From UHGV virus genome UHGV-0269045: a stretch of 7,179 nucleotides of DNA, one strand, 5' to 3'. Origin of the DNA: a virus. Positions 1 to 7,179 of the stretch are shown here, piece after piece. The notes under the pieces are model-generated. The model ran no database searches, had not been told where the DNA came from, and worked only from the letters and a program-made list of their open reading frames with translations. How positions within the stretch are numbered: position 1 is the stretch's first letter; each line of letters begins with the position of its first letter. Both the position numbers and the translations under genes were made by a program.

Positions 1-3
1 AGC

Positions 4-168
4 ATGGCAAAGCCGATCATCACGCTCAATGGCCTAAAAATCGTCATTATGTTGGGAATGCTGGTCATTATTCTCTGCGGTATCCGTTTTGCCGCCGAGA
101 TCATCGTGCCGTTTATTCTCGCATTATTTATTGCTGTTATATATAACTTATTTCATATAACACATTGA
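4..168 (+). pseudogene. tqsA: Truncated 5' fragment of host AI-2 exporter gene tqsA (ydgG); homology ends near nt 141, then 8 unrelated codons and a TGA
   Basis: ATG at 4; translation [46 protein letters not shown] matches my recollection of the TqsA N-terminus for about 46 residues, then ...YNLFHITH stop (TGA 166-168). Sequence downstream is AT-rich and non-coding. Identification is from memory, not a search. Confidence 0.55.
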
Positions 169-347
169 TTTAATTAAATAATTTTCACCACAAAAAGTAC
201 CAAAAATCGCAAAATGACTACACCAGTGACTACACCGTTCGGTGCACTGTATGAAACAATGTGGAACAAATAGACACAAGAAATATACAGGCGGATCATC
301 TTTCCAGGGGGAAGCGCACCAATTCATGAGGGGCGTTAATGTCGATA

Positions 348-359
348 TGGGGATCCCCA
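348..359. repeat. Perfect 12-bp palindrome TGGGGATCCCCA, sharing the motif GATATGGGGATC with the hairpin at 635-662
   Basis: Read directly: tcgatatggggatccccacc; the 12-mer is its own reverse complement. Confidence 0.7.
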
Positions 360-515
360 CCTACCGGAATTTTTTTCCGGTTAAACGTTAATCAGGCTGG
401 TGGGCTTTACCTGTTCGGTAGGTGTTATGATTATCGTAATACCCGTTAAAGGGGCCGAATACATCACCGGATTTAGGGGATGTTCCCTGCCTCCTCAAAT
501 TGAGGATTGTGGAAG

Positions 516-583
516 AATCAATGGGTTAGTCTTACTTTCCCGACATACCCCAATGGGGGTTTTCGAAATAATCAATGGGTTAG
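516..583. repeat. Two identical 14-bp direct repeats AATCAATGGGTTAG (516-529 and 570-583) with a third CAATGGG core between them (552-558)
   Basis: Read directly; 54-bp periodicity; candidate arm-type recombinase binding sites. Confidence 0.6.
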
Positions 584-634
584 GCCATAGTGCAATTTTG
601 CACTCTGGAACAATTCCAACCAGTTACCGCCGTA

Positions 635-662
635 TCCCGATATGGGGATCACCATATCGGGA
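635..662. repeat. 11-bp inverted repeat TCCCGATATGG / CCATATCGGGA with a 6-nt spacer (GGATCA), 16 nt past the capsid-gene stop
   Basis: Read directly; no U-tract follows on either strand, so it is more likely a protein-binding palindrome than an intrinsic terminator. Confidence 0.6.
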
Positions 663-677
663 TTGATGCCGGAAAAA

Positions 678-1601
678 TCAGCTTTTCGCCAGAACGGTGA
701 CGGCCTTATCGAGTTTTTGCCATCCGCAATAGGTGATTGCCCTGAACGCTGTAGCGTCATTCTGGAAAAGGCTAACCGCCCCTGATTCGGTTTTTATTAC
801 CGCCTCATCAGTTGGGGTTATAACCGTGGCTTCAACGTTAATAATCAGCTTTTGAGCGTCTATCAGCATCATGCGATCAGCCTGTTCGCTCACAATTACC
901 GGTATTCTCAAAAGCTCTATCTGCCAGAACTCAGCATCAGTAAGCTGTAAGGCGTTTTCTACGGGCAAGATTAGCGACGACGTTGCAAGCGTGTTACCGT
1001 TCGCTATGTGCTTTTTGAAAAGCTCTATGAAGTTTTCGGCCTCATCAGCACCATTAAGCACGCCCTCAGGGGATACGCCAGCCACCTCCTGATCACTGGA
1101 AAGAAATTTTTCATCTATTTCTTTCACCGATTCCGATGTGATCAAGTCTCTGATCGCTGAATTGGTGCCGGGGGTGCTAAATTTGATTAGCTCGTTATTC
1201 AGCATCACAATAGCGCCAAGTTTGCACAGTTTTAGCGCGCTTTCGTTTACTTCTCCCTCTTTGACAGGGATTTCTTCGGCTTCTTTAAGCCATTTACTAC
1301 CCTTGCCTGATATTGACTGCAATTTTGCTCCAAACGGAAGATTTAGCGCGCTGCTGATTAGCTTGCCAGGTACAGACTGCGAAAAAATATACTCGCCAAG
1401 CTCTCTTACTATCGGCTCTGCCACCAGCGACGGCATGTTATCCGTGTTCATTCCTGCTACTACGGATTTTTCAAGAAATAACGATACTGCCGGATCATTT
1501 CTTTTCGTCATCTCTATAGCGTCAGCATGGCTAAATTTACACGATGCCAGCACGCTGGCGGCGCGAACTGCTGACACGCCTTTCATGTTTTTACAGATCA
1601 T
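678..1601 (-). CDS. HK97-fold major capsid protein homolog (Phage_capsid-like), short form (307 aa) without an obvious N-terminal scaffold/delta domain
   Basis: ATG at 1601 preceded by AGGAGGAGG about 8 nt upstream. The C-terminal region (ILPVENALQLTDAEFWQIELLRIPVIVSEQADRMMLIDAQKLIINVEATVITPTDEAVIKTESGAVSLFQNDATAFRAITYCGW) resembles the conserved HK97-family pattern (PADW..IELL ... GLPVVVT ... LVGDF ... RTIRAEER). Family call is by eye. Confidence 0.55.
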   Translation of the reverse strand: MICKNMKGVSAVRAASVLASCKFSHADAIEMTKRNDPAVSLFLEKSVVAGMNTDNMPSLVAEPIVRELGEYIFSQSVPGKLISSALNLPFGAKLQSISGKGSKWLKEAEEIPVKEGEVNESALKLCKLGAIVMLNNELIKFSTPGTNSAIRDLITSESVKEIDEKFLSSDQEVAGVSPEGVLNGADEAENFIELFKKHIANGNTLATSSLILPVENALQLTDAEFWQIELLRIPVIVSEQADRMMLIDAQKLIINVEATVITPTDEAVIKTESGAVSLFQNDATAFRAITYCGWQKLDKAVTVLAKS

Positions 1602-1752
1602 CTTCTTCCTCCTCCTGGAAGCACGGGTTTAGTGTTTCGTGAAAATATGGCATCAGAACAGCGGCGGCCTGTAACCGTATTTCGGTCGACTGCTGCTTGT
1701 CGTTCATGATTTCCGTGAGTACATCAATAGGGTCTGTGATGTATTCGCTCAT
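1591..1752 (-). CDS. Small hypothetical protein (53 aa, acidic C-terminus EEEEDDL), translationally coupled between terS and the capsid gene
   Basis: ATG at 1752 lies 11 nt after the terS stop with GAGGT upstream; its 3' end overlaps the capsid-gene start by 11 nt. Below the ORF-track length cutoff; found by manual translation. Confidence 0.45.
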   Translation of the reverse strand: MSEYITDPIDVLTEIMNDKQQSTEIRLQAAAVLMPYFHETLNPCFQEEEEDDL

Positions 1753-1763
1753 AGTTCGCTACC

Positions 1764-2252
1764 TCAGTGTTTTAAGTCTGTTGGTGGCTTAGGGATGGGG
1801 AACCGATTTGAGTAGACACTAGCGGCATTGAGTTTTTTAACCTCTTTTTTCCCAATGCTGCCGATCTTGCGGTGGGTGAACTGGGCCAGCTTAAACGCGG
1901 CATCTAAAGCCAGTTTTGGATCTGTGTCCATGTTGTCAATCAGTATCCTGCCCATTGCTTTGATGGGGTCGGGTAGGCCGTTATCCATCATCTCAATGGT
2001 GTTAATTGATGCCCGTTCCGGTGTAACTTTTTCGGTAACTTTCTTTGTAACTTTTTTCGGTTTTGTAACCTGAAAAGTTACATCAGAAGTTACAGCCTTA
2101 AGATACTTTTTCACCTCAGGATCATTGGATAGCTGCCAGCCTTTAACCCTTGCGGTCTTTTCGCTGTATCCCGCATGTATAGCGGCTTCCGTGGGATTTG
2201 CGCCCCTTGATAACGCATCAGCAAACCGCTTTTTTTTGGTCGTTAATGCCAT
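1764..2252 (-). CDS. terS: Terminase small subunit (Terminase_2 / PICI-type TerS), 162 aa, with internal KKVT repeats
   Basis: Start chosen at the internal ATG (2252) with GAGG 8 nt upstream. N-terminus MALTTKKKRFADALSRGANPTEAAIHAGYSEKTARVKGWQLSNDPEVKKYL matches the canonical Terminase_2 N-terminal HTH signature (..KQ.RF...Y...N.T.AA..AGYSEKTA...G..LL..P.V). The track ORF extends to 2387 but that extension has non-protein-like composition. Confidence 0.8.
   Translation of the reverse strand: MALTTKKKRFADALSRGANPTEAAIHAGYSEKTARVKGWQLSNDPEVKKYLKAVTSDVTFQVTKPKKVTKKVTEKVTPERASINTIEMMDNGLPDPIKAMGRILIDNMDTDPKLALDAAFKLAQFTHRKIGSIGKKEVKKLNAASVYSNRFPIPKPPTDLKH
2023..2093. repeat. Cluster of six GTAAC/GTTAC pentamers inside terS (four direct, two inverted), with two more GTAAC-TTTT copies just upstream of terS at 2276-2292
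   Basis: GTAAC at 2023, 2035, 2047, 2065; GTTAC at 2077, 2089; GTAAC at 2276, 2288. Eight copies in about 270 bp against an expectation of well under one. Confidence 0.6.
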
Positions 2253-2370
2253 GCAAAAACCTCGTTTTGAGGGGGTGTAACTTTTCGTGTAACTTTTTTG
2301 AAAAGCAAAATTTTCTACGAATGAGACGGGGGGCGGTGTCCAGGGCGATCGACTTTCCGGCCGGAACACT

Positions 2371-2380
2371 CCCCCCCCCC
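2371..2380. repeat. C10/G10 homopolymer tract between the 53-aa gene and terS
   Basis: Read directly (ten consecutive C on the plus strand); lies 4 nt after the stop of the upstream minus-strand gene and about 120 nt before the terS ATG. Confidence 0.9.
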
Positions 2381-2383
2381 ATG

Positions 2384-2545
2384 TCATTGCTCACCGAGTA
2401 ACGAGATCAGGCCTTCAAGTTCATCACTCAGCTTGTTTATTCGTGTCTCAAGCTCTGCGATCTTTTCCATCAATGGCGCTATGGTGTCTCTTGTTTCCTC
2501 GCCAATGGCCTTAATGATGCTTGCCTCGCGTTCTGTGATAGCCAT
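2384..2545 (-). CDS. Small hypothetical protein (53 aa), predicted helical / coiled-coil
   Basis: ATG at 2545 follows the upstream gene's TAA by 3 nt (GAGGCGTAAACAATG); translation MAITEREASIIKAIGEETRDTIAPLMEKIAELETRINKLSDELEGLISLLGEQ. Below the ORF-track cutoff; found manually. Confidence 0.5.
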   Translation of the reverse strand: MAITEREASIIKAIGEETRDTIAPLMEKIAELETRINKLSDELEGLISLLGEQ

Positions 2546-2548
2546 TGT

Positions 2549-2743
2549 TTACGCCTCACTTGTTGCAATGCCCAGGCGTTCGCGTAACAGTACGCGCGCA
2601 AGATGCCCTATTGTTGGTGTTGCCGCCCTGCCGTAGATACCTGATTCATTCATCCGGCGCACAATATCGAACTGCAACCTTTTAAGCTCGTTAAGGATTT
2701 CATGATCAATCATCACGGTAGCACTTTGCTTTATCTCTTCCAC
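2549..2743 (-). CDS. Small hypothetical protein (64 aa), first gene of the terS/capsid operon; possible small regulator
   Basis: GTG start at 2743 with a strong AGGAGG 7 nt upstream; protein-like composition; function not recognisable. Confidence 0.55.
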   Translation of the reverse strand: MEEIKQSATVMIDHEILNELKRLQFDIVRRMNESGIYGRAATPTIGHLARVLLRERLGIATSEA

Positions 2744-2831
2744 TTTGTTTCCTCCTGATACTTATCATCGCATAATCAGTATTTTCGATAGATTATCATT
2801 AATTAACCATTTTTGAAGATATGAGAGTTTG

Positions 2832-2855
2832 AAAAAAAGCCGGATTGCTCCGGCT
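2832..2855 (-). terminator. Rho-independent terminator on the minus strand
   Basis: Minus-strand RNA reads AGCCGGA-GCAA-UCCGGCU followed by U7 (plus strand shows A7 then gccgga ttgc tccggc); located 20 nt downstream of the 90-aa ORF stop. Confidence 0.7.
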
Positions 2856-2873
2856 ATGTGCTCACTCCTTCGG

Positions 2874-3146
2874 TTATTCTCCATTGCTTTTAACGTTGAT
2901 GGTTGTTACCTGTTCCGCTTCTGCAATCTCCCGCTCTGTCAGCGTGGCAAAGTTTGCCGCCGCCGTGGTCATGAATGCGCTTATTAGTTCGGGATGTGCT
3001 TTCGAGTATCCTTCTCCCGCTGTGATGTCTATCACCTTTATAGCCACCTTTAAGGCGTGCTCTGTCATCTCCAGCGCTTTATATCTTGGTGCTGTTCTGT
3101 CTTTGCGTTTTTTGAGTGATTTGTTAAATCTTCCTGATGTGTGCAT
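2874..3146 (-). CDS. Hypothetical protein (90 aa) with a basic N-terminus (KSLKKRKDRTAPRYK); apparently monocistronic between the ori repeats and a terminator
   Basis: ORF with protein-like composition, GAGGG about 11 nt upstream of the ATG, terminator immediately downstream; no recognisable family. Confidence 0.45.
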   Translation of the reverse strand: MHTSGRFNKSLKKRKDRTAPRYKALEMTEHALKVAIKVIDITAGEGYSKAHPELISAFMTTAAANFATLTEREIAEAEQVTTINVKSNGE

Positions 3147-3191
3147 TTTTATTTTTACCCTCGTGTTTAAAAAGTTTTAGGTTGTGGTGCA

Positions 3192-3420
3192 CCTCCTCTA
3201 CCTCTCTACCTAATCATCTTTCATGTCAGTAATGGCGCGGCTTTCAGATGGGTAGAGGGCTTTCGTGGCCCTCTACCCATCCTCTACCCGCCCCTCACAA
3301 ACGATCTTAATCATGGTAGAAGAGGTAGAGAGGTTTTATTAGCCTTCTACCTAGCCCTCTACCCACTTATCATGTTGAATAATATGCGTTTATTTCATCC
3401 AGGTAGATGGGGTAGAGGGC
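3192..3420. repeat. Iteron array (about 11 copies of CTCTACC / GGTAGAG in both orientations), putative replication origin bound by the adjacent primase/helicase
   Basis: Heptamer copies at about 3196, 3204, 3251, 3271, 3283, 3315, 3324, 3345, 3357, 3402, 3411; includes a perfect 11-bp inverted repeat GGGTAGAGGGC (3250-3260) / GCCCTCTACCC (3268-3278); begins 12 nt after the primase stop; no ORF. Confidence 0.7.
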
Positions 3421-3432
3421 TTTTACAAAAAA

Positions 3433-5181
3433 TTATAAAAACGCGTCACAATCATCAGTTGTAATTGCGTTGGTCTGCGTTACTCCCTTAACTCTCCGCG
3501 TAATATATTCATGCCCGTAAACTTTCGCCGCTGGCTTCATGGCCTTGCTGAACTCAGCCACGTTTAGCGGTTTGCTCCTGCCTGCGTATGCCATAAACGC
3601 CAGATAGACGCGGTAAAGGCTGTTCCTGGTCGTATACTTCACTGAATCACCACCGCCCCCCATCATCAGGCCGCGCGCTTCCTCCAGAAAATTCAGGAAC
3701 TGGCAAAACTCAATAACCGGATCCGTCTGTTGCTTTATCGCCAGTGCTTCATCACCGTCGCGCTGTTCCAGTAATAAAGCCCGTGCCTTTTCAGGGTCGG
3801 CAAAATTAGCCAGCAAGCGACGGATAATTACGGGGATTTCAGCCGCGACCTTCTCCGGCAAATCCTTGTCTTTTTCGTCCTCCCTTACAATGTTGTCGAA
3901 CCGGAAAATCACCCGACGGCGTGACACACCTCCGGCCCGCTCGGTGAATATCATCGGGTTATTGTTGGTAGCCAGCACCACCGCCCTGATTACCGCCGTA
4001 AAACGCTTCTCATATTTCGGGTTTATTTCCACGGGGTCGCCGCCCGTGATTTTCTTGATGCCCGTTCCTTCGCCTGTATATTTCGGCTGGTCAGCCAGGA
4101 CGATAAGACGACTCCCGACAACCTGCGCACGTCCACCAGCATCATCAAGTGAGGTCATTTCAGCGCTTACCGTGTTCTGTTTCCCTGCCAGAAGGCTGGC
4201 TATGTGCGTGAATGTACTTTTACCGCTACCGCCCTCTCCGGTGGCCTCAATAAACATCTGCCAGTCGTACCGGTTCGCCATAATCATGTACAGCGCGGCA
4301 CATATACGCATCATCTTTCGCGGGTCTTTTCCGGCTGCGTGCTCAAGCCATTTATGAAAGTTTGGCGCGTTGTCGCGAATGTTCTCCCCTGGTGCTGGTG
4401 GCGTGTACTCAATGCCGTTGTGCGTGGTGATCCAGTTCTCCGGCGTGTGCGGGGAAAATTCCCCCGCTTTCAGGTCAAGCACACCATTGGCGAACGGCAG
4501 CAAATCGCCTGACGGCTCCCCCATTGGTTCGGCAATAACTTTTAACGCTTCCACGGCGTTATTGATTACGCGCTTGCTGAAAGTGGCCCTGTGCTCTGAA
4601 TAGATCACCACCATTTCGCGGCTCAGCTCCATTGTGCTGACCGGACACCATACCCCGCCGCGCCATACGTGAACTATTTCACTTTCAGGATGTACGCAAA
4701 CGCCATCAAATCGACCAGCAAGCAGCTGGGCGCGCTCACTGTCTGCCATTTGTGCCAGTTGCGTATTTTTCTGCTCCGGCATGGTAAGCCCTGCGGCAAT
4801 ATTTTCACGCTCAGCATTCAGATAGCGCCGCCAGTTTTCACACTTCTGGGCGTGCATTCCTTCGGGGTAAAAATTTGTGTCCTGAATATCTGCTGCCGCC
4901 AGCTTCTGACCAATCTTTTTGGTCTCCACCAAGTCCAGTTCTCCTGCCTGGTACAGCCTTACGCGTTTTTTTCCATCAGGAACAATTTGCAGTGCATCAA
5001 GTTCGGCAAGCTGATTTGGCCCAAGCCACACAGGAGGCACATTATCGCCGGATGCGGGGCCGTCCTGCTCCTGCCACTGTTTTGCATGTGCCCACGCATC
5101 ACTACCCGCGAAAATAATCACCTCTGTGTCTTTGTGTTTTATTCCGCGTGGCTGTTTTTTTACGTTCGGTGCCAGTTTCAT
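3433..5181 (-). CDS. Replicative primase/helicase (P4 alpha-like / PICI Pri-Rep type): N-terminal primase-like region plus SF3-type P-loop NTPase
   Basis: 582 aa; Walker A GEGGSGKST around residue 320; N-terminal VIIFAGSDAW ... RVRLYQAGE resembles a toprim-like primase region; ATG overlaps the upstream gene's stop in an ATGA arrangement; iterons directly downstream. Confidence 0.85.
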   Translation of the reverse strand: MKLAPNVKKQPRGIKHKDTEVIIFAGSDAWAHAKQWQEQDGPASGDNVPPVWLGPNQLAELDALQIVPDGKKRVRLYQAGELDLVETKKIGQKLAAADIQDTNFYPEGMHAQKCENWRRYLNAERENIAAGLTMPEQKNTQLAQMADSERAQLLAGRFDGVCVHPESEIVHVWRGGVWCPVSTMELSREMVVIYSEHRATFSKRVINNAVEALKVIAEPMGEPSGDLLPFANGVLDLKAGEFSPHTPENWITTHNGIEYTPPAPGENIRDNAPNFHKWLEHAAGKDPRKMMRICAALYMIMANRYDWQMFIEATGEGGSGKSTFTHIASLLAGKQNTVSAEMTSLDDAGGRAQVVGSRLIVLADQPKYTGEGTGIKKITGGDPVEINPKYEKRFTAVIRAVVLATNNNPMIFTERAGGVSRRRVIFRFDNIVREDEKDKDLPEKVAAEIPVIIRRLLANFADPEKARALLLEQRDGDEALAIKQQTDPVIEFCQFLNFLEEARGLMMGGGGDSVKYTTRNSLYRVYLAFMAYAGRSKPLNVAEFSKAMKPAAKVYGHEYITRRVKGVTQTNAITTDDCDAFL

Positions 5182-5477
5182 TTTTTACCCCTGAATACGT
5201 TAAGCATCTTTTTTATTTCCTGAATATTGGCGCGTGCTTTCTCCCTGCTGGTTGGTTTACTGCGGGGCGCTGCCTGTACCAGAGAAAAATCACGATCGAA
5301 CTGATAAACAGGCATAACGCAGTCATATTCGTAGCCTTCACGGCGGTAAGTGATGCGCCGTTCCTCCACGCCTTTAATCGTTACCGTGCCGCCGTACTGG
5401 TCGCGGTAAATATCCCCGCGCATGAATTTAGTGCGAGTTTTGCCGCTGGCAGTTAAGCCAGGATATTTAAGTTTCAT
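5178..5477 (-). CDS. Hypothetical protein (99 aa), translationally coupled to the primase gene
   Basis: ATG at 5477 with GGAGA 9 nt upstream; stop overlaps the primase ATG (ATGA); protein-like composition. Confidence 0.6.
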   Translation of the reverse strand: MKLKYPGLTASGKTRTKFMRGDIYRDQYGGTVTIKGVEERRITYRREGYEYDCVMPVYQFDRDFSLVQAAPRSKPTSREKARANIQEIKKMLNVFRGKK

Positions 5478-5482
5478 TATTT

Positions 5483-5725
5483 TTATTCTCCGATAGCGTG
5501 ACCTGATAAGCCGTTAATCTTCTCTGATATGCTCTCTATTTTGCTGGTTGAACTATCCAGTAATTCAGAAACGGCTAATATTAATCTTGCAGTTGATTCA
5601 TCGCGTTCATTATTCACCAGCGACTGAAGCCACATATTCATTACTTCGTTTGCTGCGTTGTTTAAAGATATTGCGCTGTTGGCAAGGCTTCTTAATTCAC
5701 TGGTCGCCAGTTTATTATTTTTCAT
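5483..5725 (-). CDS. Hypothetical protein (about 80 aa; start ambiguous between 5725 and 5743)
   Basis: Track ORF 5483..5746; the ATG at 5725 (MKNNKLATSELRSL...) overlaps the upstream gene's end by 11 nt; stop lies 5 nt before the next gene's ATG. Confidence 0.5.
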   Translation of the reverse strand: MKNNKLATSELRSLANSAISLNNAANEVMNMWLQSLVNNERDESTARLILAVSELLDSSTSKIESISEKINGLSGHAIGE

Positions 5726-5906
5726 AGCATTCGGCTCTCTCATCAATTAACCACAGCGCAACACTTTCTGACAGTTTTGCCAGAAGGCCAGCTAATGCGG
5801 ATATATCACCATCATTTAATTTATTAGGGTATACCTCAAGAAGGCGGCAAATAATTTCTGTCTGGTGCGCACGTTCAGCGGCTTCGTGTAATGTAATTTC
5901 CTTCAT
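5715..5906 (-). CDS. Hypothetical protein (63 aa)
   Basis: ATG at 5906 overlaps the stop of the upstream ORF (TAATG); protein-like composition (MKEITLHEAAERAHQTEIICRLLEVYPNKL...). Confidence 0.55.
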   Translation of the reverse strand: MKEITLHEAAERAHQTEIICRLLEVYPNKLNDGDISALAGLLAKLSESVALWLIDERAECYEK

Positions 5907-6091
5907 TAATGCACCTCTTTTAATTCATACACTGCTGAAATAATGACTTGTGATAAGCCATATTCTGATGATTCGCTTCTCACCGCAGCAATAGCCGTCT
6001 GAACATTAACAGCCTTCACATTCTGAGCGATACCAATTGTGTGGCCTAGTGGGTTAACAGCGCTGGCAAATACACGGAAGGTTTTAAGCAC
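5906..6091 (-). CDS. Hypothetical protein (about 61 aa from a GTG start), first gene of the primase operon
   Basis: The 95-aa track ORF has an implausible N-terminal 34 residues; the GTG at 6091 is preceded by GGGGG 6 nt upstream and gives VLKTFRVFASAVNPLGHTIG...ELKEVH. Start-site assignment is inferential. Confidence 0.4.
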   Translation of the reverse strand: MLKTFRVFASAVNPLGHTIGIAQNVKAVNVQTAIAAVRSESSEYGLSQVIISAVYELKEVH

Positions 6092-6097
6092 GGCACA

Positions 6098-6746
6098 CCC
6101 CCTGACGAATACGGGCGACAAAAATAAGATGTGCGTGCGGCAGCTGTGCGCGTGCTTCGCACTCAGTGGCAGCGGTAACGGTGAATATTGCAATGCTGTC
6201 TGTCAGGCACTGCATAAAGCGCCAGACAAAGTAAGGGCGTGCGGATACAGCCATGTGAAAGGCTCCCAGATGAATTTTAAGGAGTCTCGCTACTACGCTG
6301 TCAAACATGGTGGCGAGACGTAACAGGGTTGACAGACTGGTCATCTGGAAACCAGCGAGCACAAAGGCTCCCCCGTTACGCCCCGCCATAATGCGGGTAT
6401 GGGTAGGTTTACGGACACAAAAAAACCGCTTATCGGATGTGGGCGGCTGTCCGCCAGATGTATTCAGGCTGTCAAACCCGGTCGCCATGTGGGCGACGGG
6501 GGAAGCATACAGCCCCGTGATAATTTTTTGCAAGCGGTTTTTACGCATGATGTGACCCCTGACGAATACGAGCGGCAAATACAGCAACACAACCTGACGG
6601 GCAACGGCTACGCGCTTCGCGTTCCGTCCAGGCGGTTACGTGGATGATTTGAGATTCTCCGGCACTCAGTGCCAGAAAACGCCACACAAAGGCCGTTTGT
6701 GTGTACAAGGTGTGGTATATGATTTACGGCAACCATAACGGCTCCT
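6098..6746. repeat. Repeat-rich noncoding leader / regulatory region containing two diverged paralogous segments (about 6098-6266 and 6555-6745) that begin with an identical 15-mer
   Basis: CCCCTGACGAATACG at 6099-6113 and 6556-6570; further shared motifs GCACTCAGTG(G/C)CAG (6159-6172, 6662-6675), CTTCGC, CGGT(A/T)ACG, ACAAAGG and a terminal GGCTCC (6261, 6366, 6740). ORFs on both strands here have non-protein-like composition. Confidence 0.6.
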
Positions 6747-6766
6747 AGTTTACGTTGTTGGTTAGA

Positions 6767-6809
6767 AGCCCTGCGAGTGGTAATGACACTTGCGGGGCTT
6801 TGCTTTTTT
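6767..6809 (+). terminator. Rho-independent terminator on the plus strand
   Basis: AGCCCUGCGAGUG (6767-6779), loop GUAAUGA, CACUUGCGGGGCU (6787-6799): a 13-bp stem including two G-U pairs, followed by UUGCUUUUUU; no U-tract on the minus strand. Confidence 0.7.
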
Positions 6810-6825
6810 AAGTGCTCTTGTGTTA

Positions 6826-6870
6826 AGGTGACCACCTAACAATGGAAAGGCTAATTCAATAGGTGGCCAC
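6826..6870. promoter_or_regulatory. Putative operator: two palindromic GGTG(A/G)CCAC sites about 34 bp apart, overlapping the RBS/start of the Arc-like gene
   Basis: GGTGACCACC at 6827-6836 and GGTGGCCAC at 6862-6870 (GTGGCCAC is a perfect palindrome); the second overlaps the AGGTGG Shine-Dalgarno and abuts the TTG start. Confidence 0.5.
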
Positions 6871-7062
6871 TTGTCAACAATCAAACGCGATAAAAGCCCT
6901 AAAGGGGACGGGCAATCCCCACAATTCAGAATGCGAATTTCTCCAGAGCTAAAAGAGCAATTCGACAAAGAAGCACAGAGCGACGGCATAAGCCTAGCCA
7001 ACTGGCTTAAAGAGTTGGGGCGCACTGAACTAAAGCGGCGCGGCATAGAACCCAAAGGATAA
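6871..7062 (+). CDS. Arc/Mnt-family ribbon-helix-helix transcriptional repressor (63 aa), candidate master repressor of the element
   Basis: PQFRMRISPELKEQFDKEAQSDGISLANWLKELGRTELKRRG aligns by eye with P22 Arc (PQFNLRWPREVLDLVRKVAEENGRSVNSEIYQRVMESFKKEG). TTG start with AGGTGG 4 nt upstream; divergent from the minus-strand operons. Confidence 0.6.
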   Translation: MSTIKRDKSPKGDGQSPQFRMRISPELKEQFDKEAQSDGISLANWLKELGRTELKRRGIEPKG

Positions 7063-7119
7063 AAACTATCAGCGCCGTGGTGTGAGGTATTACGGCGCAT
7101 TGCTATGCAGGACAACACA

Positions 7120-7179
7120 ATGACCGATAAAGAATTGACCAAAACATTATCACCGGCACGGAAAAGACGGCGCAGAAAG
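7120..7179 (+). CDS. 5' end of an ORF running off the window (MTDKELTKTLSPARKRRRRK...); function unknown
   Basis: ATG at 7120 (an in-frame ATG also at 7105); open to the window end; only 20 codons visible. Confidence 0.3.
   Translation, partial: MTDKELTKTLSPARKRRRRK

What the first reader, a model, noticed from the sequence alone, without database searches (positions are those of the whole stretch)
1..677. Element inserted within the 5' coding region of a host membrane-transporter gene, with a structured 530-bp arm
The first 141 nt appear to encode the N-terminus of TqsA, after which the reading frame decays. The next 530 bp are noncoding and carry a perfect 12-bp palindrome (348-359), a related 11-bp-stem inverted repeat (635-662) sharing GATATGGGGATC, and two identical 14-bp direct repeats (516-529, 570-583). 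Integration into the 5' part of a protein-coding gene would inactivate it unless the other end supplies a replacement, which is unusual compared with tRNA-targeting satellites. The repeats look like recombinase and accessory-factor binding sites of an att arm.
Basis: partly seen in the sequence, partly recalled or inferred. Interest (0 to 1): 0.5.

Follow-up and report, generated by a model that had tools for sequence, protein, structure and literature searches.

The report
Satellite arm copying helper-phage regulator sites
Bases 1-677 are the junction between the E. coli tqsA gene and an integrated 9.4-kb phage satellite (PICI), which is ordinary and already known, but the satellite's non-coding arm holds a tandem set of short sites copied from inside the rha/roi regulator genes of lambdoid phages, apparently an undescribed way for a satellite to dock its helpers' regulators.

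Summary
Bases 1-140 are 100% K-12 tqsA, and the break follows an 8-bp core, GCTGTTAT. A near-identical contig (L133) shows the whole 9.4-kb element, with int and alpA at the far end, the same 8-bp repeat, and no replacement tqsA N-terminus. It is an E. coli PICI-type satellite, and tqsA is already published as an integration target.

The likely integrase arm sites are a doubled TGACTACACC (215-236), co-oriented in both arms, plus an IHF consensus at 158-170.

The flagged 14-bp repeats are IHF-consensus sites (WATCAANNNNTTR) inside modules. Each module is a small palindrome, a 10-nt spacer and an IHF site. Each copies nt ~123-173 of a different Rha-domain phage gene:
- module 1 matches JLK-2012 roi at 42/43;
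- module 2 matches VT2-Sakai roi at 38/45;
- module 3 is a variant of the phi80 rha palindrome.

All 11 E. coli PICI arms examined carry such modules, including EcCICFT073, across at least five insertion sites. They are not att-specific.

My best reading, inferred and untested, is that the modules are operator mimics that dock helper Rha/Roi proteins together with host IHF, as a decoy or a sensor. I found no published description.

The parts
1..140 (+). 5' end of host tqsA (ATG at 4). It is truncated after codon 46. The reading frame continues into the element to a stop at 166-168, giving a 54-aa ORF.
   Evidence: 140/140 identity to K-12 b1601. Translation. The same partial gene is annotated in EC100 and PCN033.
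133..140 (+). Core or crossover identity GCTGTTAT (attL copy).
   Evidence: The same 8 bp precedes the tqsA remainder at the int end of L133, L001 and L002 and is present once in K-12 attB.
141..330 (.). Int-distal arm of attP, homologous among PICIs with related integrases. It contains an IHF consensus on the - strand at 158-170 (AATCAATGTGTTA), the doubled arm-type motif TGACTACACC at 215-224 and 227-236, the doubled GRAACAA at 253-259 and 263-269, and a weak promoter-like site at 271-299.
   Evidence: The doubled motifs recur co-oriented in the int-side arm, centred at -144 and +89 from the core centre. The geometry resembles the published HE-PICI doubled motif (PMC10111431). Window 1-443 is 98.6-98.9% identical to other tqsA-inserted elements and the arm is homologous in EcCICFT073. 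Promoter scan.
343..410 (.). Repeat unit of unknown role: CGATATGGGGATC plus the perfect palindrome TGGGGATCCCCA (348-359), followed by CCGGAATTTTTTTCCGG (364-380). It pairs as a 28-nt inverted repeat (332-359) with 643-670.
   Evidence: The unit occurs once or several times in other PICI arms (L004 twice, L104 three times). Fold z is only -1.8 and -2.1.
483..536 (+). Module 1. It has the palindrome TCCTCAAATTGAGGA (492-506), a spacer and the IHF consensus AATCAATGGGTTA (516-528). It copies roi of phage JLK-2012/phi330.
   Evidence: 42/43 identity to JLK-2012 roi nt 129-171 and 46/49 to phi330. The palindrome occurs only once in the 57-kb JLK-2012 genome, inside roi.
537..589 (+). Module 2. 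It has the palindrome CCCCAATGGGG (548-558), a spacer and the IHF consensus AATCAATGGGTTA (570-582). It copies the roi allele of VT2-Sakai type.
   Evidence: 38/45 identity to VT2-Sakai roi nt 123-167. The satellite palindrome is perfect where the coding copy (CCCCCAATGGTGG) is not.
590..626 (+). Module 3, degenerate. It has the palindrome GTGCAATTTTGCAC (590-603), a 10-nt spacer and TTCCAACCAGTTA (614-626, 2 mismatches to the IHF consensus). The palindrome is a symmetric variant of the phi80 rha palindrome GCGCAATTTTGCGC.
   Evidence: L104 carries the same module with a perfect IHF consensus. No cognate phage allele with exactly this palindrome was found.
634..663 (.). A 30-bp near-perfect palindrome or hairpin immediately 3' of the capsid-like gene's stop codon (678-680). 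There is no U-tract on either strand.
   Evidence: I2. Fold -24.2 and -26.2 kcal/mol, z -3.2 and -4.2. No terminator-like hit. Duplicated in L004.
678..1601 (-). Last gene of the satellite, a 307-aa capsid-like protein. Listed only as the boundary of the arm.
   Evidence: PF05065 at 29 bits. PHROG major head protein.

Best explanation
Window 1-677 is the attL junction of a 9.4-kb PICI-type phage satellite. The element carries int, alpA, a C4/icd-like module, DUF4222, primase, an origin, terS and a capsid-like gene. A P4-type tyrosine integrase inserted it at an 8-bp core (GCTGTTAT) in codons 44-46 of tqsA, splitting the gene without repairing it. The 530-bp arm has three layers.

(1) Bases 141 to about 330 form the int-distal attP arm. 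It holds an IHF site, a doubled integrase arm-type motif and a doubled GRAACAA motif that may bind AlpA.

(2) Bases 483-626 form a tandem array of three modules. Each is a small palindrome, a 10-nt spacer and an IHF consensus. Each is a copy of the palindrome-plus-IHF element that lies inside Rha-domain regulator genes of lambdoid phages, just after the helix-turn-helix coding part (roi of Stx and HK022-type phages, rha of phi80).

(3) Strong palindromes at 343-359 and 634-663 bracket the array.

Proposed mechanism (inferred): when a lambdoid helper develops, its Rha/Roi protein binds the matching module together with host IHF, as Roi does at the site inside its own gene. Because different modules carry the palindromes of different alleles, one satellite can dock regulators from several helper lineages. 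The consequence is either titration of the helper regulator away from its single autoregulatory site (interference) or helper-dependent remodelling of the satellite end (sensing).

Shown: sequence identities, geometry and distribution. Inferred: protein binding and its consequence.
For: Junction and element:
- Identity to tqsA and the core repeat.
- The full element in L133 is 99.986% identical to the window.
- Pfam hits: Arm-DNA-bind_3 plus Phage_integrase, AlpA, D5_N primase and DUF4222; Terminase_2 and Phage_capsid.

Arm sites:
- The doubled motifs are co-oriented in both arms at -144 and +89. The published analogue is in PMC10111431.

The array is not att-specific:
- Window 1-443 is shared with tqsA-inserted cf-PICI-like elements.
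- Window 370-6684 is shared with elements at the clpS/cspD site.
- Module-bearing arms occur in PICIs inserted next to phoQ (EcCICFT073), at yejO/tRNA-Pro, at clpS/cspD, in tqsA and in a prophage portal gene, plus one further PICI (L103) whose insertion site I did not determine.

Copying from phage genes:
- Five module types each align to nt 123-173 of a different Rha-domain gene allele. The scores are 42/43, 38/45, 36/40, 32/37 and 35/43.
- A sixth type shares 16/16 nt (CCAGCGCAATTTTGCG) with phi80 rha at the equivalent position after the HTH.

Site-like behaviour:
- The spacing from the 6-bp-stem palindrome to the IHF site is constant at 10 nt (9-12 nt by the script's stem calls) across the 22 modules it detected.
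- Satellite palindromes are often more perfect than the coding copies.
- One palindrome type is combined with different spacers.
- The palindrome is unique in the JLK-2012 genome.

Link between Rha and IHF:
- The phi80 record notes rha as 'DNA synthesis inhibition in IHF- hosts'.
- From my own knowledge of the abstract of Clerget & Boccard 1996 (J Bacteriol 178:4077), HK022 Roi binds a site within its own gene next to an IHF site, and IHF stabilises the binding. The paper is not held in the library.
- phi80 is an experimentally shown helper of EcCICFT073 (PMC6092414).
Against: - No binding data exist for these modules.
- That the palindrome is the Roi/Rha operator is my inference. I do not know the footprint coordinates from the 1996 paper.
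- In the genes, the 'IHF consensus' also encodes the conserved I-N-x-L-G motif. Its conservation there need not reflect IHF.
- The HTH residues do not covary cleanly with the palindrome. The JLK and Stx1_14040 alleles share VKRTIE.LAK but have different palindromes.
- One Rha allele, the L185 type, has no short palindrome.
- Lambda, which has no roi/rha to my knowledge (not checked here), still induces and mobilises EcCICFT073 (PMC6092414). The array is therefore not required for induction.
- The modules share ancestry among PICIs, so their constant orientation and position are not independent observations.
- The M1-M2 array was found in 0 species-representative genomes, so it may be confined to E. 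coli lineages.
Confidence: 0.55

Rival explanations
1. One reading: the palindromes and 14-bp repeats are the integrase and accessory-factor binding sites of the att arm.
For: The 14-mers fit the IHF consensus, and attP arms normally contain IHF sites (established lambda attP knowledge). The array always lies on the int-distal side of the element.
Against: - The array lies 350-490 bp from the core, whereas clear arm-type repeats sit at +78 to +100 and -155 to -133.
- Window 370-677 recurs at about 94% identity in elements at the clpS/cspD site, and the same module types recur in PICIs at three further identified sites.
- The PCN033 element has the same tqsA arm (1-443) but only one remnant module.
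- The modules match phage genes, not the other arm.
Confidence: 0.1
2. Antisense RNA. Satellite genes are on the - strand, so read-through of the late operon would produce RNA complementary to codons ~41-57 of helper rha/roi mRNAs. This would silence regulators of several helper alleles.
For: The window + strand equals the roi sense strand in every locus, opposite to the satellite genes. Complementarity would be 42/43 for module 1.
Against: - Satellite palindromes are 'improved' at the cost of complementarity, for example GGGGG against GGTGG.
- Some modules keep only the palindrome and the IHF consensus while the spacer differs. EC100 module 3 against HK022 is one case.
- The fixed palindrome-IHF spacing has no obvious RNA rationale.
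- A very stable hairpin sits between the gene's stop codon and the array.
- The array as RNA folds no better than shuffles, with z -0.7 and -1.1.
- There was no Rfam hit.
Confidence: 0.15
3. Non-functional debris or a small gene. The modules are decayed fragments of captured rha/roi genes, or ORF 400-666 (88 aa) encodes a repeat peptide.
For: The roi reading frame stays open across the modules in several loci. The modules clearly derive from coding sequence.
Against: - Only the same ~50-nt segment of the gene is ever present. It is repeated in tandem from different alleles, and no other part of the gene appears.
- Differences between homologous modules are mostly non-synonymous, for example T/P, I/T/R, G/S and R/Q.
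- Modules 4-5 of L004 are in another frame, separated by stops.
- The two other frames carry stops imposed by the motifs themselves, so the open frame is partly automatic.
- There is no Pfam hit, and RefSeq annotates no gene there in any locus.
Confidence: 0.1
4. Packaging signal. The array is the cos or pac recognition site for the satellite's own TerS, with IHF playing the role it has in lambda cosB.
For: Lambda cosB combines winged-helix TerS sites with an IHF site (PMC9026076). The element encodes its own TerS, and the array lies next to the packaging genes.
Against: - There is no cosN-like 12-mer in 1-677.
- In EcCICFT073 the lambda-like cosN copies lie in intergenic regions at L102 11541 and 12281, outside the array at 11000-11200. 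Functional cos sites were mapped by deletion (PMC6092414); which copies those are I infer.
- The same modules occur in satellites with entirely different packaging modules: rpp/cos, a full cf-PICI head module, and terS plus capsid-like.
Confidence: 0.03

Closest known systems
E. coli PICIs, prototype EcCICFT073 (Fillol-Salom et al. 2018, PMC6092414)
   Same: The layout is the same: int-alpA-...-DUF4222-primase-ori-packaging genes, size about 9-12 kb. The int-distal arm is homologous, with an IHF site, a doubled xxACTACACC motif, GRAACAA repeats and the GATATGGGGATCCCCA palindrome. It carries Rha-type modules too.
   Different: The insertion site differs (tqsA, against next to phoQ). The packaging module differs: here an own terS plus a 307-aa capsid-like gene, there rpp and lambda-type cos with capsid and decoration homologues. 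The published descriptions I could read do not mention the modules.
tqsA-targeting integrative elements, 'regulated gene integrity' candidates (Mageeney et al. 2020, PMC7192596)
   Same: Integration inside tqsA inactivates the gene. An 8-bp core is shared with attB, so precise excision would restore it.
   Different: The paper lists tqsA among 19 new cases. I could not see its per-element details. Nothing is said there about the arm's content.
attP doubled arm motif of helper-embedded PICIs (Mageeney et al. 2023, PMC10111431)
   Same: A tandemly doubled ~10-bp motif is present once in each arm and co-oriented, at about 81 and 132 bp from the attP centre there and at 89 and 144 bp here.
   Different: The motif sequence differs (TGTATTGC there, TGACTACACC here). 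Here an IHF consensus lies between the core and the motif.
HK022 Roi / phi80 Rha autoregulatory site with IHF (Clerget & Boccard 1996, from my own knowledge; phi80 record note)
   Same: The same palindromes at the same spacing to an IHF consensus: HK022 CTGCATTGCAG + AATCAATGATTTA, and phi80 GCGCAATTTTGCGC.
   Different: In the phages the site is single and lies inside the regulator's own coding sequence. In the satellite there is no rha/roi gene, the sites are non-coding, there are several in tandem, and they have different allele specificities.
Helper-to-satellite cross-talk through DNA sites, such as P2 Cox acting on the P4 late promoter, and titration loci such as E. coli datA with its IHF site or P1 incA (from my own knowledge; works-like only)
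   Same: A cluster of binding sites for a trans-acting regulator, in some cases assisted by IHF, that senses or soaks up that regulator.
   Different: There is no sequence relationship. Here the sites are copies of the helper's own operator from several alleles. No adjacent promoter was detected.

Membership tests
Gram-negative PICI (criteria of PMC6092414) | An integrase at one end and a specific chromosomal attachment site flanked by a direct repeat. | tested here: met
   L133 has a 409-aa Int with Arm-DNA-bind_3 plus Phage_integrase. The 8-bp GCTGTTAT is at both junctions.
Gram-negative PICI (criteria of PMC6092414) | An AlpA-type regulator next to int, a primase/replication gene followed by an origin, unidirectional gene order, and no lysis or tail genes. 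| tested here: met
   AlpA PF05930 at 61.8 bits. D5_N/DUF5906 primase. CCTCTACC iterons at 3195-3418. All genes are on one strand. The only structural genes are terS and a capsid-like gene.
Gram-negative PICI (criteria of PMC6092414) | Induction, replication and high-frequency transfer dependent on a helper phage. | not testable with these tools
Gram-negative PICI (criteria of PMC6092414) | The attachment site is never used by prophages. | not tested
   Only satellite-type elements were seen in tqsA in the loci I opened. I made no census.
Tyrosine-recombinase attP arm (lambda-type intasome) | Short core identity with attB, arm-type repeats in both arms, and an IHF site between core and arm sites. 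| tested here: met
   8-bp core. TGACTACACC x2 at -155..-133 and +78..+100. IHF consensus at +21. Binding itself was not tested.
Tyrosine-recombinase attP arm (lambda-type intasome) | The flagged repeats (348-359, 516-529, 570-583, 635-662) belong to the arm, meaning they are specific to this integrase/att family. | tested here: not met
   The same repeats occur in PICIs at four other identified insertion sites with other integrases. They are reduced to one remnant in an element with the same tqsA arm.
Rha/Roi operator plus IHF site | A dyad-symmetric sequence identical or near-identical to the one at profile positions ~31-37 of a Rha-domain (PF09669) gene, with WATCAANNNNTTR at fixed spacing. 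| tested here: met
   Modules 1 and 2 match at 42/43 and 38/45. Other loci give 36/40, 32/37, 35/43 and 16/16. Spacing is 10 nt from the 6-bp stem.
Rha/Roi operator plus IHF site | Bound by the cognate Rha/Roi protein and by IHF. | not testable with these tools
   Needs EMSA, footprinting or ChIP. The 1996 paper could not be read.
Rha/Roi operator plus IHF site | Located inside the regulator's own coding sequence (autoregulatory). | tested here: not met
   No Rha-domain gene was seen in the element: the ORFs I scanned had no PF09669 hit and L133's precomputed Pfam list shows none. The modules are intergenic. They are therefore mimics, not members.
lambda-type cos site | A cosN 12-mer (GGGCGGCGACCT) flanked by cosQ and cosB. 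| tested here: not met
   No match with up to 3 mismatches in 1-677.
Known RNA families (Rfam 15) | A covariance-model hit in 1-677. | tested here: not met
   The only hits are C4, c4-a1b1 and isrK-like at 6306-6510 and a chance miRNA hit at 3354.

The most novel reading that the evidence does not exclude
E. coli phage satellites carry a non-coding, multi-allele array of operator mimics. Each module reproduces the palindrome-plus-IHF site that a different lambdoid Rha/Roi regulator uses inside its own gene. The amplified satellite would therefore capture the regulators of whichever helper lineage is developing. It would use this either to derail the helper's timing (a protein-free interference or immunity device) or to sense the helper. 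This would be a new class of satellite-helper interaction, built from DNA sites rather than proteins.
Probability: 0.35. Interest if true: 0.8.

Novelty: new variant of a known kind. Interest (0 to 1): 0.6.

Why it matters
The junction itself adds nothing new. PICIs, their non-tRNA insertion sites and tqsA disruption are all published.

What matters is the array. All known satellite strategies against helpers use proteins (Stl, Ppi, Rpp, Sid/Cpm, own capsids) or copies of packaging sites. A tandem set of helper-operator copies of several allele types would be a DNA-only interface with helper regulators.

It also gives a handle on two open points. The first is what Rha/Roi proteins and their IHF dependence are for in lambdoid phages. 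The second is how one PICI copes with many helper lineages.

The idea is directly testable in the best-studied system, because EcCICFT073 has the modules and phi80, a proven helper, has the matching rha. It also warns annotators that 'att arm repeats' at PICI ends are largely not integrase sites.

Tried and rejected
- cos site: no cosN-like sequence in the arm. In CFT073 the cosN copies lie outside the array.
- Known RNA: no Rfam hit in 1-677.
- Intrinsic terminators: none found, and one weak promoter-like site only.
- MITE or invertible segment: I considered this because a 28-nt inverted repeat (332-359 / 643-670) brackets the array. I rejected it because the hairpin units are duplicated in variable numbers and orders in other PICIs rather than forming a fixed cassette.
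- Protein coding: no Pfam hits, substitutions are non-synonymous, and the frame is not conserved between module groups.
- A satellite protein as the binder: the conserved 93-aa last gene next to the array in most PICIs has no Pfam hit and only an unknown-function PHROG, and it is absent from this element.
- Species-representative genomes: the capsid-like protein and the M1-M2 array pattern both gave nothing.
- IMG/VR with the capsid-like protein: most loci are cut at the gene end, so they were of little use.
- A cognate phage allele for GTGCAATTTTGCAC: 28 IMG/VR hits, the number expected by chance, and none in a rha gene.
- The Roi paper could not be retrieved. No paper in the library links Roi/Rha with PICIs.
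- I did not test whether module types match the rha/roi alleles of prophages resident in the same genome. The search tool cannot be restricted to one genome.
Full report
OBSERVATION

The window's first 140 bases are identical to E. coli K-12 tqsA, from 3 nt before the ATG to nt 137 of the gene. After GCTGTTAT (133-140) the similarity ends. The frame runs 8 more codons to a stop, giving a 54-aa ORF.

The 12-bp palindrome (348-359), the 30-bp palindrome (634-663) sharing CGATATGGGGATC, and the two AATCAATGGGTTAG copies (516-529, 570-583) are all present. An exact 14-nt repeat never arose in 1000 shuffles of 148-677. A 12-bp perfect palindrome arose in 136 of 1000, so it is not significant on its own. 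The 634-663 hairpin is significantly stable, with z = -3.2 and -4.2.

WHAT THE ELEMENT IS

A public contig, L133, is 99.986% identical to the whole window and shows the complete insertion. Its gene order is:
- pntB, then the tqsA remainder;
- int (Arm-DNA-bind_3 plus Phage_integrase) and alpA (PF05930);
- small ORFs, DUF4222 and a D5-type primase;
- terS and a capsid-like gene;
- the arm, then the tqsA 5' end and mdtJI.

The element is about 9.39 kb and is bounded by the 8-bp direct repeat GCTGTTAT, which occurs once in the K-12 attB. The int-side junction reads ...AAATGATAAAAT|GCTGTTAT|TCTTAACCCG, with TGA and TAA in the tqsA frame just before the core. No substitute N-terminus is supplied. 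Gene callers start the remainder at Met54.

In gene content and order it is an E. coli PICI (PMC6092414). tqsA is already listed among genes inactivated by integrative elements (PMC7192596). Many E. coli genomes carry satellites at this very site with the same first 443 bases. The junction is therefore real, ordinary and known.

THE TRUE ATT ARM

I reconstructed attP from L133. It shows:
- a tandemly doubled TGACTACACC in each arm, co-oriented, centred 144 bp on the int side and 89 bp on the window side (215-236) from the core centre;
- a doubled GRAACAA just outside each copy (window 253-269);
- an IHF consensus on the - strand 21 bp from the core (158-170).

This is the geometry published for helper-embedded PICIs, with a different motif sequence (PMC10111431, section 'Attachment sites'). 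The same arm is homologous in EcCICFT073, which has a related integrase but a different core.

THE ARM IS A MOSAIC

Window 1-443 travels with the tqsA integrase: it is shared with cf-PICI-like elements in tqsA. Window 370-6684 is 94% identical to satellites inserted between clpS and cspD, and 633-7179 to one at yejO/tRNA-Pro.

THE ARRAY

A BLAST of 300-700 against 50,697 phage records hit only one kind of target, a ~45-nt stretch inside roi/antirepressor genes of lambdoid (mostly Stx) phages. The two 47-nt repeats match two different alleles of the same stretch:
- Module 1 (483-536) is 42/43 identical to JLK-2012 roi and 46/49 to phi330.
- Module 2 (537-589) is 38/45 identical to VT2-Sakai roi.

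Each module consists of a small palindrome (TCCTCAAATTGAGGA; CCCCAATGGGG), a roughly 10-nt spacer and AATCAATGGGTTA. The last fits the IHF consensus WATCAANNNNTTR exactly.

A third, degenerate module follows. It has GTGCAATTTTGCAC (590-603), a 10-nt spacer and TTCCAACCAGTTA.

Other PICIs carry further module types, and each aligns to nt 123-173 of another Rha-domain (PF09669) gene allele:

| Satellite palindrome | Matching phage allele | Identity |
|---|---|---|
| CCTGCATTGCAGG | IMG/VR allele L137 (palindrome also in HK022 roi) | 36/40 |
| TTTCCGCAGTCTGTGGAAA | 'DNA-binding protein' of Stx1_14040 | 32/37 |
| TTCGCCGCTGGCGAA | corresponding gene of Stx2_EH2201 | 35/43 |

phi80 rha is a strong PF09669 member at 107 bits. 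Its record notes 'DNA synthesis inhibition in IHF- hosts'. It has the perfect palindrome GCGCAATTTTGCGC at the same distance after its helix-turn-helix. PICI arms carry CCAGCGCAATTTTGCG (16/16). The window's GTGCAATTTTGCAC is the symmetric variant.

WHY I READ THE MODULES AS PROTEIN-BINDING SITES

- Only this ~50-nt piece of the gene is ever present. It is repeated in tandem from different alleles.
- The palindrome-to-IHF spacing is constant at 10 nt from the 6-bp stem across the 22 modules the census script detected in 11 arms.
- Satellite palindromes are frequently more perfect than the coding copies. Examples are CCCCCAATGGGGG against CCCCCAATGGTGG, and TTCGCCgctGGCGAA against tGCGCCaatGGCGAa. 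The palindrome and the IHF consensus persist while spacers change.
- In the 57-kb JLK-2012 genome the palindrome occurs once, inside roi.
- From my own knowledge of the abstract of Clerget & Boccard 1996, HK022 Roi binds a site within its own gene next to an IHF site, and IHF stabilises the binding. The paper could not be read here. Equating that site with this palindrome is my inference.

RIVALS

- Antisense RNA. The array is always antisense to the satellite operon. However, the 'improved' palindromes reduce complementarity, some modules keep only the palindrome and the IHF site, and the array RNA is not unusually structured. I cannot exclude this rival.
- Coding. ORF 400-666 stays in the roi frame. 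However, inter-locus changes are non-synonymous, other module groups are in another frame, and nothing is annotated there. The motifs themselves put stops in the other two frames.
- cos or pac site. There is no cosN in the arm, and the CFT073 cosN copies lie outside the array.
- att accessory sites. These are rejected for the array on distribution and distance, as set out above.

DISTRIBUTION

All 11 PICI int-distal arms I opened have at least one module. Between them they cover:
- five insertion sites: tqsA, next to phoQ, clpS/cspD, yejO/tRNA-Pro, and a prophage portal gene; for one further PICI (L103) I did not determine the site;
- several kinds of packaging module.

The prototype EcCICFT073 is among them. 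In total, 665 of 5,426 complete E. coli genomes have a BLAST match to 476-640, though some of these are roi genes. Eighteen IMG/VR contigs carry the M1-M2 pair. No species-representative genome does.

MECHANISM

Shown: the sequence copies, their geometry, their multiplicity of allele types, and their location in non-coding DNA at the int-distal end of satellites.

Inferred: helper Rha/Roi dimers bind the matching module together with IHF.

The consequence is unknown, and I see two forms:
- Titration. The satellite replicates to high copy, while the phage has a single gene-internal site. Rha/Roi activity is harmful to the phage when IHF control fails.
- Helper sensing at the satellite end, next to attP and upstream of int in the circular form.

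Lambda lacks roi/rha to my knowledge (not checked here) yet induces and mobilises EcCICFT073. The array is therefore not the induction switch.

COMPARISON AND NOVELTY

The element is a member of a known family and the insertion site is known. The array works like a regulator-titration or trans-sensing locus (P2 Cox acting on P4; datA with IHF). Unlike those, it is made of copies of the helpers' own operators.

I found no description of it in the PICI papers I could read or in full-text searches for Roi/Rha/IHF with PICI. I rate it a new variant of a known kind. Interest is 0.6, resting entirely on the array.

Noticed in passing
window 6306-6510 (- strand): C4 antisense RNA (RF01695, 72.6 bits, above gathering) and its a1/b1 target element (RF03163, 46.8 bits), plus an isrK-like match below threshold. 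They lie next to Icd-like ORFs. This is a P1/P7-type C4/icd immunity module inside the satellite.
   Followed up: no
window 2371-2380: A homopolymer C10 (G10 on the coding strand) lies between the 53-aa ORF and terS. It is G10 in the window and L133 but G8 in the otherwise near-identical L134 and L135. With G10 the terS frame opens from ATG 2387 (207 aa) instead of the 162-aa form. This may be a phase-variable tract.
   Followed up: partly
window 4034-4045 (- strand); L102 16456: A lambda cosN-like 12-mer, GGGCGGCGACCC (1 mismatch), lies inside the primase gene. The same 11-mer is inside the EcCICFT073 primase gene. It may be a coding coincidence or a cryptic cos.
   Followed up: no
window 3195-3418: CCTCTACC / GGTAGAGG iterons lie just downstream of the primase gene. 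This is probably the satellite replication origin, as described for PICIs.
   Followed up: no
L216 (E. coli EC28) 6546-7351: A PICI carrying the same three-module array is inserted inside a prophage portal gene, which is the helper-embedded PICI configuration.
   Followed up: no
L103 (E. coli JNEC-KY208) 8401-9116: In another PICI type the array lies directly upstream of a Q-family antiterminator gene, rather than at the extreme end of the element.
   Followed up: no
PICI arms L001, L103, L104, L222: Further recurrent small palindromes with no identified phage counterpart: CCTCAGATGTGAGG, ACTACGAAAATTTCGTAGT and GACGGTTAAACCGTC. They may be mimics of other phage DNA-binding proteins' sites.
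   Followed up: no
Rha-domain genes L006, L007, L019, L100, L101, L137, L221: The palindrome lies in the codons just after the HTH, which I guess encode the wing of the Rha domain (no structure examined). If so, the DNA site and the residues that may contact DNA are the same nucleotides. This region is also the hypervariable part of the gene.
   Followed up: partly
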